In this document: positions 21,721-28,379 of the stretch, piece by piece
Numbering within the stretch: the stretch's first letter is position 1
How the letters are laid out: each line of letters opens with the position of its first letter
NCBI RefSeq assembly: GCF_003018115.1
Contig: NZ_CP027457.1
Length of the DNA stretch: 64,000 nt
Origin: Escherichia coli
GTDB lineage: Bacteria; Pseudomonadota; Gammaproteobacteria; Enterobacterales; Enterobacteriaceae
Direction: 5' to 3' (one strand)
Position numbers and translations under genes: made by a program
The notes under the pieces: model-generated
What the model was told of the DNA's origin: nothing
Seen by the model: only the letters and a program-made list of their open reading frames with translations
Database searches by the model: none

Positions 21721-22698
<978 letters not shown>

Positions 22699-22892
22699 TT
22701 ATCGTTATGATCTACAAAGGCCACCAGCATAACAAATCCGTGGTCGGTGGCAAAAAAAGCAGATTTCGCTTATTAAAACCACACATTGATTGAAGTTTGA
22801 ATAAACGCGCGATTTTTTAAAAAAGTTTGTTGACCTCAGGTCATGATTTCCCTAAATTAGCGCCCGTTCCAGCAAGACAGGAACGACAATTT

Positions 22893-22980
22893 GGTGAGGT
22901 GTCCGAGTGGCTGAAGGAGCACGCCTGGAAAGTGTGTATACGGCAACGTATCGGGGGTTCGAATCCCCCCCTCACCGCCA
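22893..22980 (+). tRNA. serX: tRNA-Ser (anticodon GGA)
   Basis: ggtgaggtgtccgagtggctgaaggagcacgcctggaaagtgtg...ggttcgaatccccccctcaccgcca; 88 nt with long variable arm, cu-GGA-aa anticodon loop and encoded CCA. Confidence 0.95.
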
Positions 22981-22986
22981 GATTAT

Positions 22987-23019
22987 AAGCGCATGTTATT
23001 GTTTAACATGCGCTTTTTT
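22987..23019 (+). terminator. serX terminator
   Basis: aagcgcatgtta / taacatgcgctt 12-bp stem followed by tttt. Confidence 0.85.
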
Positions 23020-23129
23020 ATTTTTCCTTCCAGACAGTATGCCATCGGGTATGCCATCTGAAACCGGTTTATATGCCCCGCGATCATATCTTATCGGACA
23101 ATTTCCGATCTTTGAGCATACTGGCAAAG

Positions 23130-23971
23130 CTATACTGCCAGCATGTCAGGATAGTGTTTTGCGATAATATCATTCAGTCTGTCAACCAGTTCTGGTTTTC
23201 TGAACGTGATATGCGCGGAGCCCTTCTTAAAGTATCTGATGCTGAACATCTCATCTTCATAGTCCTCTTTTCCCTGAACAGATTGGATATGGTCATCCAG
23301 ATGAATGGTGATGTTTTCCCGGTTGTCGGGGATCGGTTTGCCGCTGAACAGGTGCAGCATTCTTTCCAGATCGGCAAGTCGATCGGCCTGTTGCCCGGTG
23401 ATAAGATGCCCCCCCACCGGTCCCACCTCACCAGATTGTTGACGATAATTTTACTGCCAAATTTGCAGGGTGAATTGGTTTTGTAATTCCAGCTCAGTCC
23501 CCTGAAAACGTTGATCACCCCTCGCTCAAACACTTCATCTTTGTTCTGGTGCAGTTGTTCAAACGTGCTCAGGATATTCGCTTCGCTGATTTCCGGAAAA
23601 TTATCGTACTCCAGTGACCGGTACCATGTATCACGGGCTTGTGCATCCATTAATGACAGCATCCCTGAACGTTGCATCAGGTCACGCCAGATTTCGCGGT
23701 CAAGGTTGTGGGTGATGGCTTTCATTGCGGTTTCCGGTTTCTCCATGAGCCAGCAGCCACAGCGAAAATCCTGTTTCATGGCCCAGTCCAGTGCGGTTTT
23801 ACCTCCGATGCTTTCCGCCAGCACCGAGATTTCTGCCAGTTGCCGGATAAGCGTGTCGATTTGCAGCAGTGTACTTTTTCGTACAGCCAGAATGTGGCGG
23901 ATACTGGTTGAGCAGATAACGTCCGTATGCCCGTTGACAACTTCCAGACGAGAGGCTGTGATATCAGACAT
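23130..23971 (-). pseudogene. DUF4942-type protein, frameshifted in a C7/G7 tract
   Basis: ORFs 23174..23971 and 23130..23426 are consecutive parts of one protein (...LVRWDRWG | GHLITGQQADRLADLE...); junction at the C7 run 23409-23415. Confidence 0.75.
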
Positions 23972-23981
23972 AATCGATTAT

Positions 23982-25403
23982 ATGAACGCATCCCGTTTGC
24001 AAAGGCATCCATTGTTCTGACATCGACGGTAGGTTGCAGCTTTATATCCGGCTTTATTGCAGCCCGGAAGCTGCGAGCCCCTATGTAATTCGCCGACTCA
24101 CGCCTCATTTCCTCAGCGGGCTTTAGGCCCAATCGATTATCCAGGTTTAGTGAGTCACGGTCTTACCTGTCTTTGTCATCACGCTGGCTGCCAGAGCAAC
24201 CTTTCTGCATTCACCCTTTTGTAAAGAGTTTATGTTTATCGGTATCAGCGATTAATCAGGCCTGATACTGACATGATTTTTGTCGTATTTACGTCCGTGA
24301 GCGGCTATTGCCCACACCGTTCGCGCCAGCTTGTTTGCCATTGCGACGATTGCCACGCTGGCCGGACGACGCTTTTTCAGTTCGGTTATCCATGGACCAG
24401 GTTCTTTGGTCAGTAATGCTGCCGCCCTTGCACCATGAATAAACAGGGTTCGCAGATATTTATCACCACGTTTGCTTATTCCCAGCAGGCGGATTTTTCC
24501 TCCTGAGCCTGTCTGTCTGGGCACCAGACCGATAAACGCGGCGAATTCCCGTCCCGACTTAAAGGCGGAGGCGTCTCCCATCGTGGCAACGGCAGCGGTG
24601 GCGATTAACGGCCCCACGCCTGGGATGTTCAGTAACCGCTGACAGGTTTCATTCTGTCTGGCTACCGCCTGCAACTGCTTCTCAATGTGGTCAAGATGTT
24701 CATCAAGTTCAGTAATTCGCTGATATTGTTCATCCAGCATGTTTATCAGGTAGAGCGGTAGCCGCTCCTTCAGACGCTCCAGGGCTTCCGGCACCTCCTT
24801 CGCCAAAGCAGCACGCCCCTTGTGCGTCGTTTCACCAAATTCCAGCAAGAGACCGTGAAGCGCGTTTATTTGTGCTGTCCTGAACTTCACCAGTTGCTGG
24901 CGCATTCGGTGTAACCCCAGCGTAGCCTGTTGCTCCTCGCTTTTAACGGCGACGGATTTTACCGGCTGCTGAACCGCCAGCCAGATGGCTCGGGCGTCCA
25001 TCACATCGTTTTTATTTCCCATCACGAATGCTTTGACGAACCGGCCTTTGAGTAATCTGACCTTATGTCCCAGTTTCTGAAGCTCACGCGCCCAGTGATG
25101 AGAACCCCCACAGGCCTCCATGCCGATAAGGCAGGGTTCACGGTTGCTGAAATATTCAAGGAATTTCTCACGCTTAACCTGCTTATCGATAATCTCTCCG
25201 GTATGTTCATCAACGAAATGCACCTGCATAAGATGTTTTGCAATATCAACCCCGACAGGGATATATTTCATGGTGTGGATCCTCCAGTCTGTTGGGAGCG
25301 AAACGCATCCCGTTGGGCACGATGATGCCGGAAATCTGCGGGGATCCACACTCATCTACTTAATCCCCGAGCGGCTCATTTCATAATGTTGGGATGCGTT
25401 CAT
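23982..25403 (-). mobile_element. IS110-family (IS1111-like) insertion sequence, approximate ends
   Basis: 13-bp inverted repeat atgaacgcatccc (23982-23994) / gggatgcgttcat (25391-25403) brackets a DEDD-type transposase gene; about 1.42 kb. Confidence 0.7.
24252..25271 (-). CDS. IS110-family transposase/recombinase
   Basis: MKYIPVGVDIAKHLMQVHF... start at 25271 gives 339 aa; MEACGGSHHWARELQKLGH and LLNIPGVGPLIATAA motifs typical of IS110/IS1111 transposases. Confidence 0.88.
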   Translation of the reverse strand: MKYIPVGVDIAKHLMQVHFVDEHTGEIIDKQVKREKFLEYFSNREPCLIGMEACGGSHHWARELQKLGHKVRLLKGRFVKAFVMGNKNDVMDARAIWLAVQQPVKSVAVKSEEQQATLGLHRMRQQLVKFRTAQINALHGLLLEFGETTHKGRAALAKEVPEALERLKERLPLYLINMLDEQYQRITELDEHLDHIEKQLQAVARQNETCQRLLNIPGVGPLIATAAVATMGDASAFKSGREFAAFIGLVPRQTGSGGKIRLLGISKRGDKYLRTLFIHGARAAALLTKEPGPWITELKKRRPASVAIVAMANKLARTVWAIAAHGRKYDKNHVSIRPD

Positions 25404-25484
25404 TACATTTCCTTTTTGCAGATAAATGAAAACGCCAGCCCTGTTCAGGCTGACGTCAGTGGAATAAAGTCTGGTGAGTGAGAT

Positions 25485-25682
25485 TCACCGGTTCTGGTGC
25501 AGAAGCTGCAGTTGGCGCAGGGTACGGATATCCTCCCCGGCCTGTTCAATACAGGGCAACAGTGCTGCCGAATCCGTTTTATCTTCATCGTTGTCAAAGA
25601 TAATCCCCGATTCGCAGTCGATATTGTCCTGCAGCCACGCAATCAGAATATCCAGTGCTGTTTCCGTGGTTAATGATTTCAT
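25485..25682 (-). CDS. DUF957-type small protein
   Basis: 65 aa MKSLTTETALDILIAWLQDNIDCESGIIFDNDEDK...; usual position after the yeeW-like gene in CP4-type islands. Confidence 0.7.
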   Translation of the reverse strand: MKSLTTETALDILIAWLQDNIDCESGIIFDNDEDKTDSAALLPCIEQAGEDIRTLRQLQLLHQNR

Positions 25683-25693
25683 GTTGTTCCTGG

Positions 25694-26182
25694 TTACCAG
25701 TCGAAAGTGGGTAAATCCGGCAGACATTCGGCGCTGGCATCCAGATGAATGAGACTGACGCCATAACGTCGGGTAAGTGTGACAACCAGACGGCGGAACG
25801 TTTTTGACAGCCCCAGGCGTTTAAGCCGCAGAACCGGGTATGACCACGCACCGGTACGTAACAGATATCCGCTACCTGTGAAATGAATCCATTCTGATTC
25901 GCCAGTGTCATTCGTCTGATGTGACAGCGAATACAACCAGGCGTTGTCCTTTGCCGTGATATGCGCGGTACTGCAGCGTATGCCGGTCAGGGCAGCAAAT
26001 GGTGGCGTGCGCTCTGCTGATGTCCGGTCAGATTCATCAACAACACGAAGGGAGTAGCCATTGTCGCAGGCCACGTTAATCAGTTCAGCGAGATTAACAC
26101 CATCGACGTCAACGACAATTCGTCCCATGTTCAGCGCCTGCACGTTAACGCTGTCTGCTTCCAGCGTCAGGGCCAGTTTCAT
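25694..26182 (-). CDS. DUF5983 / YeeW-like protein
   Basis: 162-aa ORF whose start overlaps the cbtA stop by 4 nt; synteny with K-12 yeeW. Confidence 0.75.
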   Translation of the reverse strand: MKLALTLEADSVNVQALNMGRIVVDVDGVNLAELINVACDNGYSLRVVDESDRTSAERTPPFAALTGIRCSTAHITAKDNAWLYSLSHQTNDTGESEWIHFTGSGYLLRTGAWSYPVLRLKRLGLSKTFRRLVVTLTRRYGVSLIHLDASAECLPDLPTFDW

Positions 26183-26556
26183 TGTTTCGCCCCCGGATGT
26201 TTACCCAGGGTAATGTTATTTACCGTTCTGTAATTGTCGCGGGTCATCAGGCCTGTCGCCCGGCGGGCCCGGAGGATATCGATGCTGTTTATTAACTGAG
26301 AGTGGGTACAGGTGCTGAATCCCGGCTGGTCGGTACGCACCAGTGCGTATTTTTCCACGAGAAAGTTCACCGCATCGCACAGTGAAATGCCGGCCTCAAT
26401 ATGCTGCTCAATCACACGTTCATCAGCGAACGGTGTGTCATTCAGCGTAAGGCCGTAGTGCTGGTCCAGTAGTCGGGAGAGCAGTGTCTGCCAGATGGTG
26501 ACGGGAGACGGGCTGCGCGATGCCTCCCGTACGTGTGTATCGGGTAATGTTTTCAT
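26179..26556 (-). CDS. cbtA: CbtA-family cytoskeleton-targeting toxin
   Basis: 125 aa; ...IWQTLLSRLLDQHYGLTLNDTPFADERVIEQHIEAGISLCDAVNFLVEKYALVRTDQPGF... near-identical to recalled K-12 CbtA/YkfI/YpjF. Confidence 0.9.
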   Translation of the reverse strand: MKTLPDTHVREASRSPSPVTIWQTLLSRLLDQHYGLTLNDTPFADERVIEQHIEAGISLCDAVNFLVEKYALVRTDQPGFSTCTHSQLINSIDILRARRATGLMTRDNYRTVNNITLGKHPGAKQ

Positions 26557-26645
26557 ACTGAAGATTTTCCTGATATGAGAGATTAAATTTTGAGGAGAGT
26601 GGTGCTGTAGCGCACCGGGCCGGAGCAGACGATTATTTCGGTGGT

Positions 26646-27014
26646 TTACTTTTTCGTTTCTGGCGTCGGATAAACAGCCATATAAACGTAACCACAGCTG
26701 CCGAGGGTGTCGGCTTCGCAGGTCAGCCCTCTGGCATACAGCGTGACGGTATGCTGATGGCTGGGGCTGAGTTCACCGCTGGTGAGCATGAGTTCCAGTT
26801 GTTTCATCAGCAGCGGAAAGGCCTGGTCCAGATGGTACGCATCCGCGTCGCTGAACCGGCCTCTGATACCGGCGCGGTCTGCAAGGTAATGCAACCGGTT
26901 ACCCTCCTGCACCAGACGTGCCCCAAAACAGGGCGTCACGGTGCAGGGTAGCCCCCACCAGGGGCGGTCGTTGTTATCGTCGGGATGCGTTGTCCCGGGG
27001 AGAGTGTCTGACAC
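26646..27014 (-). CDS. cbeA: CbeA-family antitoxin
   Basis: 122-aa ORF directly upstream of the toxin gene; YeeU/YafW/YfjZ-like (WWGLPCTVTPCFGARLVQEGNRLHYLADRA). Confidence 0.88.
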   Translation of the reverse strand: MSDTLPGTTHPDDNNDRPWWGLPCTVTPCFGARLVQEGNRLHYLADRAGIRGRFSDADAYHLDQAFPLLMKQLELMLTSGELSPSHQHTVTLYARGLTCEADTLGSCGYVYMAVYPTPETKK

Positions 27015-27093
27015 GATAAAATCCTCACAGAAAATTGGTTAAGAATGGTCCGGTGGTGGCGATAATTCTGCTCTTCTGAATGCCCTTCCAGAC

Positions 27094-27315
27094 TCAGTTC
27101 AGGGTGACGCTCATCAGCCGGACATACGGACCGAAACTGTCCTTACGGCGTTCTGCAAACACAGCCAGCACACCGGGAATATCCTGCACTTCACGGCCGG
27201 TATATGTATCCGTGCTACCGTGCCAGCGGTATTTACCGGTACAGAACGGAAAAAGACGGGATGCAGGATGCTGACGGTGAATACGCATGGCTTCACCACG
27301 GGGGATGATTTTCAT
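27094..27315 (-). CDS. DUF987 (YeeT-like) protein
   Basis: 73-aa ORF; conserved position between the radC-like gene and the antitoxin. Confidence 0.75.
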   Translation of the reverse strand: MKIIPRGEAMRIHRQHPASRLFPFCTGKYRWHGSTDTYTGREVQDIPGVLAVFAERRKDSFGPYVRLMSVTLN

Positions 27316-27401
27316 GAGAATAGTCCTCCTGAATGTGAAAGTAAGAAACAGCTGAGAAAGAGAAACTGAAGTGATATGAAGGTGATTGTGACGGTGACGG
27401 G

Positions 27402-27893
27402 TTAAAGCAGTCCGTGTTCCGCAAAGGAGAAAACCTGGCTGCCACCGACTATCAGATGGTCCGGCACCCGGATATCCACCAGAGCCAGTGCCTGTACCAG
27501 ACGTTCCGTGATAAGGCGGTCTGCCTTGCTGGGTGTGACTTCACCGGACGGGTGATTGTGCGCCAGCACCACGGCAGCGGCATTGTGATACAGGGCGCGT
27601 TTAATCACTTCCCGGGGATGGACTTCCGTGCGGTTGATGGTGCCGGTGAAGAGGGTTTCACCGGCAATCAGCTGATTCTGGTTGTTCAGATACAGCACCC
27701 GGAATTCTTCACGCTCCAGTCCCGCCATGTTAAGAATCAGCCATTCCCGTGCCGCACGGGTGGAGGTGAAGGCCACGCCGGGTTCATGAAGATGGCGGTC
27801 CAGGGTTTTCAGGGCCCGCAGAATGAGACTGCGCTCGCCGGGCGTCATCTCTCCGGGCAGAAAGGAAAGCTGCTGCATTGTTCCTGCCTCCAT
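27402..27893 (-). CDS. RadC-like JAB-domain protein (YeeS-like)
   Basis: JAMM motif HNHPSGEVTPSKAD; alternative start MQQLSF at 27878. Confidence 0.85.
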   Translation of the reverse strand: MEAGTMQQLSFLPGEMTPGERSLILRALKTLDRHLHEPGVAFTSTRAAREWLILNMAGLEREEFRVLYLNNQNQLIAGETLFTGTINRTEVHPREVIKRALYHNAAAVVLAHNHPSGEVTPSKADRLITERLVQALALVDIRVPDHLIVGGSQVFSFAEHGLL

Positions 27894-28379
27894 TCAGTCG
27901 ATGATGCGCATAATGGCGCTGCATTCCGGATGCTGCAGGGCGTAATCCCGCAGCCGGTAATAATGGACCGTCATGGCATAACACTCCGTACGACAGGCAT
28001 GATGACTGTACGTCATCAGACAGGCAGCAATGCCGGCGGCTTCCGGACTCATTTCAGCGCGGTTACCGTTCATGGCATTGAACAGTACCCATTTTTCGTC
28101 ATCATCGTCATCCGGTTCAGGTGCCATAAATGCCCCGCCGTTGTTCAGGGTGTACAGATTCCAGATACCACCGCAGTAGTCTTCGCACAGACGGTCCATC
28201 CAGCCGAAAACACGGGGCTCCAGGGTCACCCACTGTGGAATGAGGCCAAAATGCTGCGGCCAGAAGCTGATGCGCTGTTCATCAGGGACTATGGTGGCAA
28301 CCAGCTGAGGCTGGTCATTCCCTGATGCAGCGGTTACGGAAACAGAAGGAGTGGTGGAATTATGCAAGACGGTTGTCAT
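27894..28379 (-). CDS. ArdB/KlcA-family antirestriction protein
   Basis: 161-aa ORF; ...LCEDYCGGIWNLYTLNNGGAFMAPE...YHYYRLRDYALQHPE typical of YfjX/YafX/KlcA. Confidence 0.82.
   Translation of the reverse strand: MTTVLHNSTTPSVSVTAASGNDQPQLVATIVPDEQRISFWPQHFGLIPQWVTLEPRVFGWMDRLCEDYCGGIWNLYTLNNGGAFMAPEPDDDDDEKWVLFNAMNGNRAEMSPEAAGIAACLMTYSHHACRTECYAMTVHYYRLRDYALQHPECSAIMRIID

What the first reader, a model, noticed from the sequence alone, without database searches (positions are those of the whole stretch)
23982..25403. IS110/IS1111-family element with 13-bp inverted repeats and a 270-nt non-coding 3' arm (candidate bridge/seek RNA)
A 339-aa IS110-family recombinase gene (24252-25271) is bracketed by atgaacgcatccc (23982-23994) and its exact reverse complement (25391-25403). 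The non-coding arms are asymmetric: about 130 nt on the 5' side and about 270 nt on the 3' side (23982-24251). Recent work on IS110/IS1111 elements, as I recall it, places a structured guide RNA (bridge RNA / seekRNA) in a non-coding end. It lies downstream of the recombinase in the IS1111 subgroup, which is also the subgroup with subterminal IRs. The 3' arm is therefore a candidate programmable guide RNA. The element sits 11 nt upstream of the DUF4942 start codon and separates that gene from the upstream operon.
Basis: partly seen in the sequence, partly recalled or inferred. Interest (0 to 1): 0.5.

Follow-up and report, generated by a model that had tools for sequence, protein, structure and literature searches.

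The report
ISEc11-like insertion sequence with guide RNA
This is an intact 1,431-bp jumping gene of the IS1111 type whose 3' non-coding arm encodes a two-loop guide RNA that matches the DNA on both sides of its own insertion site; it is a naturally re-targeted cousin of the experimentally studied ISEc11, so it is a good example of a known mechanism, not a new one.

Summary
The exact 13-bp inverted repeats, the 339-aa DEDD recombinase gene on the minus strand, and the 132-nt 5' and 270-nt 3' arms are all present. Empty sites and independent copies show that the repeats are sub-terminal. The element spans 23980-25410 (1,431 bp), ending 2 nt beyond the repeat on the right and 7 nt beyond it on the left, as in ISEc11.

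The transposase is 81% identical to that of ISEc11, the IS1111-family model for seekRNA. The 3' arm aligns with the ISEc11 non-coding region except at two short segments. In each element those segments match that element's own flanks:
- Here, GAUAAUCGAUU is complementary to the right flank AATCGATTAT, and GAGGAAAUG equals the left junction.
- In ISEc11, the same positions spell its GTGAAAATACTG target.

In 26 relatives, 30 base pairs are 96.8% paired and 14 show compensatory changes. They form two stem-loops, each with an internal loop. The second loop covaries with the element's ends, as a donor-binding loop would.

This is a new member of a known kind, of modest interest. Two side results stand out. 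Nearly the whole clade inserts between a Shine-Dalgarno sequence and a start codon. The bases between the two target half-sites differ unexpectedly between empty and occupied sites.

The parts
23980..25410 (-). Whole insertion sequence, 1,431 bp. The transposase strand is the window minus strand. The ends follow the ISEc11 convention: a 7-bp left extension and a 2-bp right extension outside the repeats.
   Evidence: Occupied versus empty ydhF/ydhL site. Ends identical to ISEc11. Three independent contexts.
25391..25403 (.). Left-end sub-terminal inverted repeat (ATGAACGCATCCC on the tnp strand).
23982..23994 (.). Right-end sub-terminal inverted repeat (GGGATGCGTTCAT on the tnp strand).
25404..25410 (-). 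Left terminal extension AAATGTA. Its first two bases, AA (25409-25410), are the core shared with the target. ATGTA plus AT of the repeat forms the right-donor sequence read by RDG.
23980..23981 (-). Right terminal extension AT (tnp strand ...GTTCAT-AT).
24252..25271 (-). Transposase/recombinase gene, 339 aa. DEDD candidates are D9, E52, D89 and D92. The GLVPRQTGSG motif places the serine at 256.
   Evidence: 81% identical to TnpEc11.
24028..24172 (-). Structured guide RNA region (seekRNA / bridge RNA) of 145 nt, starting 80 nt after the tnp stop codon. The true RNA 5' and 3' ends were not determined.
   Evidence: RNAalifold consensus. Pair counts: 96.8% paired, 14 compensatory pairs, 0/500 shuffles. 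Covariance-model hit of 158 bits, the only one in the window. One hit per relative, always 3' of tnp.
24094..24158 (-). Target-binding stem-loop. An outer 8-bp stem plus CCU/AGG and an inner GGGC/GCCC hairpin enclose a two-sided internal loop. It is homologous to the region of ISEc11 that carries its two target-matching segments; the ends of the published 82-nt seekRNA could not be mapped here.
   Evidence: Every pair of the outer stem shows compensatory changes.
24131..24141 (-). RTG (top-strand guide) GAUAAUCGAUU. It is complementary to core plus right flank AATCGATTAT, a 10/10 match.
   Evidence: Own-flank versus other-flank run lengths of 6.7 versus 3.3, permutation p<=1e-4.
24106..24114 (-). 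LTG (bottom-strand guide) GAGGAAAUG. It has the same sense as the left flank AGG, the core AA and the first bases ATG of the left end.
24036..24093 (-). Second (donor-binding) stem-loop. An outer GCG/UGC stem and an inner GGCU/AGCC stem plus a GCAGC/GCUGC hairpin enclose a two-sided internal loop.
24082..24090 (-). RDG AAUUACAUA. It is complementary to ATGTAAT at the left end of the element.
   Evidence: Covaries with the left extension in relatives, in a fixed register: TTACAT/ATGTAA, TCTCAT/ATGAGA, TGACAT/ATGTCA, TTCCAT/ATGGAA, TCTTAT/ATAAGA.
24040..24048 (-). LDG GAUAUAAAG. It has the same sense as the right end ATAT, the core AA and one more A, which is the circle junction CATAT-AAA-TG.
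   Evidence: Tracks CATAT versus CATAC right ends and AA versus AG cores in relatives.
23970..23979 (-). Right half of the target (AATCGATTAT on the tnp strand). It includes the AT of the DUF4942 start codon (ATG = 23969-23971 on the minus strand).
25411..25415 (-). Left half of the target (AAAGG on the tnp strand). This is the Shine-Dalgarno sequence of DUF4942, now cut off from its start codon.
23997..24002 (-). TTGCAA in the right end. It is the presumed -35 of the junction promoter that forms only in the circular form. The sequence from here across the junction is identical to ISEc11.
   Evidence: Junction promoter of ISEc11 reported in PMC11187229. No minus-strand sigma-70-like site inside the linear element.
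25273..25351 (-). tnp 5' UTR hairpin. GUGUGGAUCC (25342-25351) pairs with GGAUCCACAC (25273-25282) and covers the tnp Shine-Dalgarno sequence GGAGGA (25280-25285).
   Evidence: Consensus fold of 10 relatives with compensatory changes. Coordinates.

Best explanation
Window 23980-25410 is an intact IS1111-group insertion sequence. It is a distinct relative of ISEc11 that moves by RNA-guided DEDD recombination.

Guide RNA. About 80 nt after the stop codon of the recombinase gene lies a roughly 145-nt RNA (24028-24172, minus strand) that folds into two stem-loops, each with a two-sided internal loop.
- The first loop reads the target. [quoted passage not shown] - The second loop reads the element's own joined ends. 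RDG (AAUUACAUA) pairs with ATGTAAT at the left end. LDG (GAUAUAAAG) pairs with the right end plus core (ATAT-AAA).

Inferred cycle.
1. The element excises as a circle with a CATAT-AAA-TGTAAT junction.
2. The junction forms a promoter that drives tnp and the co-transcribed guide.
3. The recombinase-RNA complex inserts the circle, in one orientation, at 5'-AGG-AA-NNGATTAT(G)-3'.

In this window that site is the Shine-Dalgarno-to-start-codon interval of a DUF4942 gene at the end of a tRNA-Ser island. The gene's ribosome-binding site is now 1.4 kb away from its ATG.

Shown here: the anatomy, homology, structural covariation, guide/flank and guide/end covariation, and the empty sites.

Inferred from ISEc11 and IS621 experiments: RNA expression and processing, RNP formation, circle formation, the junction promoter, and the chemistry.
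For: Mobility:
- Identical copies occur in three unrelated contexts, and the empty ydhF/ydhL site fits a conservative insertion with a shared AA core.

Homology:
- The recombinase has both IS110-family Pfam domains and exceeds the NCBIfam cutoff. It is 81% identical over 338 aa to TnpEc11.
- The ends, from TTGCAA in the right end through the junction into the left repeat, are identical to ISEc11.

Re-targeting:
- The 3' arm aligns with the ISEc11 non-coding region. The two blocks where they differ most spell each element's own target. This is the same pattern reported as natural re-direction for ISEc11 versus ISXne4 (PMC11187229).
- Over 22 distinct guides, RTG matches its own right flank with a mean exact run of 6.7, against 3.3 for other elements' flanks. 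Permutation p<=1e-4.

Structure:
- 30 pairs in 26 distinct sequences are 96.8% paired, with 14 pairs changed on both sides.
- 0 of 500 shuffles reach any of the measures, and slid controls pair at <=41%.

Donor loop:
- RDG tracks five different left-extension variants in a fixed register. LDG tracks CATAT/CATAC ends and AA/AG cores.

Generality:
- A covariance model finds exactly one hit in the window.
- It finds one hit per relative, always on the tnp strand about 85-100 nt after the stop. This includes eight loci not used to build the model.

Published experiments:
- The ISEc11 3' non-coding region is essential for circle formation and transposition. Its RNA co-purifies with the transposase and can be reprogrammed (PMC11187229).
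- 93% of IS1111 elements have a predicted bridge RNA in the right end (PMC11208160).
Against: - No expression data exist for this element. The RNA ends, processing and RNP are inferred by homology.
- The single-sequence fold is only marginally better than shuffles (z -1.64). The structural case rests on covariation.
- For ISEc11, the 82-nt RNA carrying only the target loop was sufficient, and even better, in the reporter assay. The authors state that the role of the long RNA is unknown (PMC11187229). The donor-binding role of the second loop therefore rests only on covariation here, plus analogy with IS621.
- The sequences are phylogenetically related, so shuffle-based controls overstate independence.
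- No empty DUF4942 site with exactly the predicted sequence exists in 5,426 E. coli genomes. All carry 2 extra nt. The IncI1 empty site has 1 nt fewer than predicted.
- A terminator-like hairpin lies just upstream of the element, so read-through transcription at this particular locus may be low.
Confidence: 0.9

Rival explanations
1. Only the first stem-loop (the short seekRNA) is a guide. The second stem-loop is a processing, stability or termination module of the tnp 3' UTR, and the ends are recognised by the protein through the sub-terminal repeats.
For: The ISEc11 82-nt RNA alone supported 42% transposition, against about 15% for the 154-nt RNA. The authors say the role of the long RNA is not established (PMC11187229). 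The 13-bp repeats are an obvious protein-binding candidate and are absent from the IS110 group.
Against: RDG and LDG change in step with the left extension, the right terminal base and the core, across at least five independent variant classes and in a fixed register. A pure stability element has no reason to do this. Durrant et al. report donor-complementary loops in three IS1111-group elements.
Confidence: 0.2
2. The element is a fixed, immobile relic at this locus. The complementarity between guide and flank survives from a past event, but the copy no longer transposes.
For: About 178 genomes carry it at the same DUF4942/DUF957 position. A terminator-like hairpin lies just upstream. The tnp Shine-Dalgarno sequence is buried in a conserved hairpin.
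Against: The ORF is intact. The encoded protein accession (WP_000875212.1) is the same in a chromosomal copy and in an IncI1 plasmid copy. Copies in diverged DUF4942 alleles differ by only 3 of 1,431 nt while their flanks differ at 13 of 200 positions. Ends, guides and flanks are all intact and match each other.
Confidence: 0.1
3. The 3' arm has no RNA function. Its conservation reflects DNA-level transposase-binding sites, and the flank matches arise because part of the 'flank' is really inside the element.
For: Flanks in three contexts look alike (cataatcRMttat / tacatttcctYtt). This could suggest mis-set ends.
Against: Empty sites retain the AGG...GATTATG halves without the element, so they are target and not element. 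Compensatory base-pair changes in four of the seven helices (2, 4, 6 and 7) point to selection on RNA structure. The guide blocks differ between relatives in step with different targets.
Confidence: 0.02

Closest known systems
ISEc11 (IS1111 group; the seekRNA model of Siddiquee et al. 2024, PMC11187229)
   Same: - 339-aa transposase, 81% identical.
- The same 13-bp sub-terminal repeats, the same 7-bp (AAATGTA) and 2-bp (AT) extensions, and the same junction sequence.
- The same RNA scaffold at the same distance from the stop codon, with the top-strand match 5' of the bottom-strand match.
   Different: - About 78% DNA identity overall.
- Both guide segments differ (GAUAAUCGAUU/GAGGAAAUG versus AACAGUAUUUU/GUGAAAAU), so the target is AGG-AA-NNGATTATG instead of GTGAA-AATACTG inside IS66 tnpB.
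- The 5' UTR upstream of the conserved hairpin is diverged.
- No experiments exist for this element.
ISXne4 and ISEc66 (other ISEc11-subgroup members; natural re-direction reported for ISXne4)
   Same: Same subgroup and the same phenomenon: a conserved scaffold with swapped guide blocks. Relatives from Xenorhabdus, Photorhabdus and Brenneria are 77-82% identical in protein.
   Different: Guides and targets differ. ISEc66 is about 79% identical in DNA. Identity to a named ISfinder entry could not be checked.
IS621 bridge RNA (IS110 group; Durrant et al. 2024 PMC11208160; Hiraizumi et al. 2024 PMC11208158)
   Same: - Two internal loops, each with one guide for the bottom strand on the left and one for the top strand on the right.
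- A 2-nt core shared by target and donor.
- The left target guide extends into donor sequence, which resembles handshake pairing.
- A DEDD RuvC domain plus a serine-bearing Tnp domain.
   Different: - The RNA lies 3' of the gene, not 5'.
- The order of the guides within each loop is reversed.
- The repeats are long (13 bp) and sub-terminal.
- The core is AA or AG rather than CT.
- The RNA would be cut from the tnp 3' UTR rather than made as a separate 5' transcript.
[quoted passage not shown]
   Same: Orientation-specific insertion between the ribosome-binding site and the start codon of host genes.
   Different: A different subgroup and a different host phylum. The link between that preference and a guide RNA is drawn here only for the ISEc11 clade.

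Membership tests
IS110 family, IS1111 group | N-terminal DEDD (RuvC-like) domain | tested here: met
   PF01548 E 8e-14, residues 6-144. Conserved D9, E52, D89 and D92 lie in the VGVDIAK, GMEACG and KNDVMDA contexts. These residue assignments come from motif position, not from structure.
IS110 family, IS1111 group | C-terminal Tnp domain (PF02371) with the GL-P----S/TG motif | tested here: met
   PF02371 E 5e-23. GLVPRQTGSG at 248-257. The motif is as defined in PMC11187229.
IS110 family, IS1111 group | Sub-terminal inverted repeats of 7-17 bp with short terminal extensions | tested here: met
   13-bp exact repeats. Extensions of 7 nt and 2 nt follow from the empty ydhF/ydhL site and from ISEc11.
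IS110 family, IS1111 group | Long non-coding region downstream of tnp | tested here: met
   272 nt from the stop codon to the right end, against 139 nt upstream of tnp.
IS110 family, IS1111 group | Sequence-specific, orientation-specific insertion without a target-site duplication beyond a shared core | tested here: inconclusive
   The ydhF/ydhL site is exactly conservative. The IncI1 site gains 1 nt and the DUF4942 site loses 2 nt relative to every empty allele found. Orientation is the same in all 3 contexts.
seekRNA / bridge RNA-guided elements | Structured RNA in the long non-coding end, supported by covariation | tested here: met
seekRNA / bridge RNA-guided elements | [quoted passage not shown] | tested here: met
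   RTG matches 10/10 and LTG matches 8 nt at this locus. The swap relative to ISEc11 and the permutation test support specificity.
seekRNA / bridge RNA-guided elements | Second loop matching the donor (the joined element ends) | tested here: met
   RDG and LDG are complementary to the ends and covary with end variants. The functional requirement is unproven, and the short ISEc11 RNA suffices in the published assay.
seekRNA / bridge RNA-guided elements | RNA is expressed, binds the recombinase and is required for movement | not testable with these tools
   Shown only for ISEc11, ISPa11, ISKpn4, ISPst6 and ISEc21 (PMC11187229) and for IS621 (PMC11208160).
ISEc11 itself (same IS or an isoform) | Near-identity in DNA and protein, and the same target | tested here: not met
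   About 78% DNA identity, 81% protein identity, and a different target. This is a distinct IS of the same subgroup.
Rfam RNA family | Match to a curated covariance model | tested here: not met
   No Rfam 15 hit at E<=1 in 23000-26500. No family appears to exist for this RNA.

The most novel reading that the evidence does not exclude
The ISEc11 clade may be a lineage of RNA-guided elements hard-wired to home to translation-initiation regions. The left target guide keeps an AGGA(G/A) block that reads the Shine-Dalgarno sequence. The 5' end of the right target guide keeps AU, which reads the AT of ATG. Only the spacer-reading part of the right target guide varies. A promoterless element would then always land co-oriented, just behind a host ribosome-binding site, on an active transcript.

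In addition, the two half-sites may be read independently. The 1, 2 or 4 bases lying between them in empty sites would then be replaced by the donor's AA core. That behaviour has not been described for IS621 or ISEc11.
Probability: 0.3. Interest if true: 0.6.

Novelty: new member of a known kind. Interest (0 to 1): 0.38.

Why it matters
RNA-guided DEDD recombinases are being developed as programmable tools for inserting DNA. This element is a natural, apparently active re-targeting of ISEc11, the best-studied IS1111 system. It uses the same scaffold and ends with different guides, so it gives a ready-made second specificity for comparison.

The covariation of the second loop with the element's ends bears on the function of the 'long seekRNA', which its discoverers left open.

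For this genome, the practical consequence is that the DUF4942 gene at the edge of the tRNA-Ser island has been cut off from its ribosome-binding site.

Tried and rejected
- Rfam 15 scan of 23000-26500 at E<=1 gave no hits. I therefore built a model, R1, from 26 relatives.
- The single-sequence fold of the 145-nt RNA was only weakly better than shuffles (z -1.64). I did not use it as evidence.
- I considered that the similar flanks in three contexts meant the element was longer than thought. Empty sites keep those bases, so I rejected this.
- I tried alternative crossover registers (an AT core, shifted ends) to reconcile the DUF4942 empty allele GGAATATCGATTATG with the occupied junctions. None reproduces both junctions.
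- The in-frame 28-codon upstream extension of tnp (ATG at 25355, 367 aa) is not conserved in ISEc11 (by eye). The 339-aa start has its own GGAGGA and matches TnpEc11 in length.
- Naming the IS was not possible, because ISfinder is not available. The supplementary files of PMC11187229 hold no identical transposase.
- The paper on the ISEc11 junction promoter (PMC1483014) is not in the library. The exact -10 box could not be cited.
Full report
**1. Observation**

The 13-bp sequence ATGAACGCATCCC at 23982-23994 and its exact reverse complement at 25391-25403 are present. They bracket a minus-strand ORF at 24252-25271 encoding 339 aa. The ORF matches Pfam DEDD_Tnp_IS110 and Transposase_20. It also matches the NCBIfam model 'IS110 family RNA-guided transposase' at 341 bits against a cutoff of 140. 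The arms are 132 nt on the 5' side and 270 nt on the 3' side, as described.

The unit is not a chance repeat. It occurs at >=99% identity in 68 E. coli records and in at least three unrelated settings:
- between DUF4942 and DUF957 genes of a prophage-like island (about 178 genomes);
- between ydhF and ydhL;
- in an IncI1 plasmid next to excA.

**2. True ends**

In all three contexts the bases just outside the repeats are alike. The empty ydhF/ydhL site reads, on the transposase strand, CTGATAAGAGG-AA-GCGATTATG. The occupied site reads GAGG|AAATGTA-ATGAAC...GTTCAT-AT|AAGCGATTATG.

The element therefore carries a 7-nt left extension (AAATGTA) and a 2-nt right extension (AT), and shares an AA core with its target. 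This is the arrangement described for ISEc11 (PMC11187229), whose ends are identical in sequence. In window coordinates the element is 23980-25410, which is 1,431 bp.

**3. What it is related to**

- The protein is 81% identical over 338 aa to the ISEc11 transposase taken from the supplement of PMC11187229.
- DNA identity to ISEc11 and ISEc66 is about 78-79%. It is a different IS of the same subgroup.
- It carries the GL-P----SG motif (GLVPRQTGSG, 248-257) and DEDD candidates D9, E52, D89 and D92.
- RefSeq already labels some copies 'IS110 family RNA-guided transposase'.

**4. The 3' arm**

Rfam 15 has nothing here. Aligned by eye with the ISEc11 non-coding region, and then by MAFFT with 34 other relatives, the arm is conserved except at two short blocks.

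| Element | First block | Complement of | Second block | Equals |
|---|---|---|---|---|
| This element | GATAATCGATT | right flank AATCGATTAT (10/10) | GAGGAAATG | left junction AGG-AA-ATG |
| ISEc11 | AACAGTATTTT | AAAATACTGTT | GTGAAAAT | its published target GTGAAAATACTG |

This is the signature that Siddiquee et al. used to show natural re-direction between ISEc11 and ISXne4.

Over 22 distinct guides, the first block matches its own right flank with a mean exact run of 6.7 nt. Against other elements' flanks the mean is 3.3 nt (permutation p<=1e-4).

**5. Structure**

I collected 51 relatives from species genomes and 8 from E. coli and Salmonella records. Forty were complete. For 26 distinct 145-nt RNA regions (alignment A1), RNAalifold gives two stem-loops.

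Counting 30 pairs:
- 96.8% of cells are paired.
- 14 pairs have changes on both sides, and all eight pairs of the outer stem of loop 1 are among them.
- 0 of 500 shuffles reach any measure.
- Partners slid by 1-3 columns pair at only 26-41%.

The sequences are related, so the shuffle control is generous. The slid control and the number of compensatory pair types are not explained by relatedness.

The single-sequence fold alone is weak (z -1.64).

A covariance model built from A1 finds one hit in the 64-kb window, at 24028-24172 on the minus strand. It finds one hit per relative, always on the transposase strand about 85-100 nt after the stop. Eight of those loci were not in the model.

**6. 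Reading the two loops**

The names below follow Durrant et al..

*Loop 1 (24094-24158), the target-binding loop.*
- RTG (24131-24141) lies on the 5' side and LTG (24106-24114) on the 3' side.
- This is the reverse of the IS621 order, as reported for IS1111 seekRNAs.
- LTG runs past the core into the first bases of the left end. This resembles the handshake pairing described for IS621.

*Loop 2 (24036-24093).*
- It carries AAUUACAUA (24082-24090), complementary to ATGTAAT of the left end.
- It also carries GAUAUAAAG (24040-24048), identical to the right end plus core (ATAT-AAA).

Across relatives these two segments change with the ends, in a fixed register:
- TTACAT/ATGTAA, TCTCAT/ATGAGA, TGACAT/ATGTCA, TTCCAT/ATGGAA and TCTTAT/ATAAGA for the first segment.
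- ATATAAA, ATATAGA or ATACAGA for CATAT+AA, CATAT+AG or CATAC+AG for the second.

Loop 2 therefore behaves as a donor-binding loop.

One caveat applies. In the published ISEc11 assay, the 82-nt RNA with loop 1 alone was sufficient and more efficient. The authors leave the role of the long RNA open.

**7. Expression (inferred)**

No sigma-70-like site on the transposase strand is found inside the linear element. This agrees with the statement for ISEc11 that the only promoter is the one created at the circle junction. The sequence from the right-end TTGCAA through the junction is identical to ISEc11.

The tnp 5' UTR folds into a conserved hairpin. GUGUGGAUCC (25342-25351) pairs with GGAUCCACAC (25273-25282), which covers the tnp Shine-Dalgarno sequence, and relatives show compensatory changes. 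This would damp translation from read-through transcripts.

**8. Target and local consequence**

The target is 5'-AGG-AA-NNGATTAT(G). In all three contexts the trailing ATG is the start codon of a co-oriented gene: DUF4942, ydhF, or a HEAT-repeat gene.

In this window the element separates the DUF4942 start codon (23969-23971) from its AAAGG ribosome-binding site (25411-25415). The gene is also frameshifted. The locus is the end of an island at tRNA-Ser(GGA), next to ghrA.

**9. Side result: clade-wide homing to translation starts**

Of 35 unique insertion sites of relatives:
- 34 have an ATG 7-10 nt after the right end.
- 31 also have AGG, GGA or GAG just before the left end.
- Only 2.7% of background positions in the same loci have both features.

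These sites are not fully independent.

LTG is nearly constant (AGGAG or AGGAA) and RTG nearly always starts with AAU or GAU, which reads the AT of ATG. ISEc11 itself is the exception.

Insertion between a Shine-Dalgarno sequence and a start codon is on record for mycobacterial IS900 and IS901 (cited in PMC2942039). I found no description of it for this enterobacterial clade.

**10. Unexplained**

The three empty sites carry different numbers of bases between the AGG and NNGATTAT halves.

| Site | Bases between the half-sites in the empty site | Evidence |
|---|---|---|
| ydhF/ydhL | 2 (AA) | |
| IncI1 plasmid | 1 (A) |; >750 plasmids |
| DUF4942 | 4 (AATA) |; every allele in 5,426 genomes |

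Yet all occupied sites have the same junction form, AGG+AAATGTA... and ...CATAT+AA+NNGATTATG.

Two diverged DUF4942 alleles (13 differences in 200 nt of flank) are both occupied by copies that differ at 3 of 1,431 nt. Independent events are therefore likely.

Two explanations remain, and this cannot be settled here:
- Rare alleles with exactly 2 nt were the real targets.
- The half-sites are read independently, and the bases between them are replaced by the donor core.

**11. Verdict**

The element is a new, or at least distinct, member of a known and experimentally established kind.

Noticed in passing
L001-L066 flanks (table); window 23969-23979 and 25411-25415: Nearly all relatives of this element, from E. 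coli, Salmonella, Xenorhabdus, Photorhabdus, Brenneria, Symbiopectobacterium, Vibrio and Variovorax, sit between an AGGA-like Shine-Dalgarno sequence and an ATG 7-10 nt downstream, co-oriented with the host gene. 31 of 35 unique sites have both features, against 2.7% of background positions. ISEc11 itself is the exception.
   Followed up: partly
window 23978-23981 and 25404-25413; L005, L006, L068 (empty sites); L001-L004 (occupied sites): Empty sites carry 2, 1 or 4 nt between the two guide-matched half-sites (ydhF/ydhL, IncI1 plasmid, DUF4942). All occupied sites have donor-type AA at both junctions. No empty DUF4942 allele of the predicted sequence exists in 5,426 genomes. One ydhF copy (L001) has an extra A at the right junction.
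   Followed up: partly
window 25273-25351 (minus strand): A conserved hairpin in the tnp 5' UTR pairs GUGUGGAUCC with GGAUCCACAC and buries the tnp Shine-Dalgarno sequence GGAGGA (25280-25285). Relatives show compensatory changes (GAGCC/GGCUC, GGCUCC/GGAGCC). An inner hairpin GGCAUCAUCGUGCC (25316-25329) is almost invariant.
   Followed up: partly
window 25302-25313: A third copy of the repeat core (ACGGGATGCGTT, the same as the right-end repeat region 23985-23996) lies inside the 5' UTR, in direct orientation to the right-end repeat. A diverged version is present in ISEc11 and other relatives.
   Followed up: no
window 24242-24268 (minus strand): The inverted repeat GTATCAG...CTGATAC straddles the tnp stop codon. 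It is followed by a strongly conserved block, AAAGGGTGAATGCAGAAAGGTTGC (24196-24219), between the stop and the guide RNA. This could be a processing or protein-binding site of the long RNA.
   Followed up: no
window 23130-23971 (minus strand): The DUF4942 gene downstream of the element is frameshifted. It appears as two overlapping ORFs, the Pfam match covers only the first 100 of 190 profile positions, and RefSeq marks the identical locus 'frameshifted'.
   Followed up: partly
window 25431-25457 (minus strand): A terminator-like hairpin (11 pairs followed by a T-rich tail) lies 20 nt upstream of the left end of the element, between DUF957 and the DUF4942 ribosome-binding site. This is a pattern match only; the scan found 3 such sites against 2.0 expected.
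   Followed up: no
L001 (NZ_CP059130.1, ydhF copy), RNA position equivalent to window 24116: The ydhF/ydhL copy L001 differs from the window copy by one base next to LTG (CUG to CAG). This lengthens the match to its own left flank from 9 to 10 nt (AGAGGAAATG).
   Followed up: no
window 21721-28325: The element sits at the end of a genomic island inserted at tRNA-Ser(GGA) (22893-22980), next to ghrA. The island carries DUF957, DUF5983, a CbtA/YeeU-type toxin-antitoxin pair, DUF987, RadC and antirestriction genes.
   Followed up: partly
L015-L042, L048, L057 (Symbiopectobacterium purcellii MEX, NZ_CP189882.1): One genome carries more than 20 copies, several of them degraded, of a relative with slightly different RTG variants (GGGGCG, GGGGUG, GGUGUG). 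They sit at many different Shine-Dalgarno-to-ATG sites with imperfect guide matches. This is an IS expansion in a symbiont.
   Followed up: no
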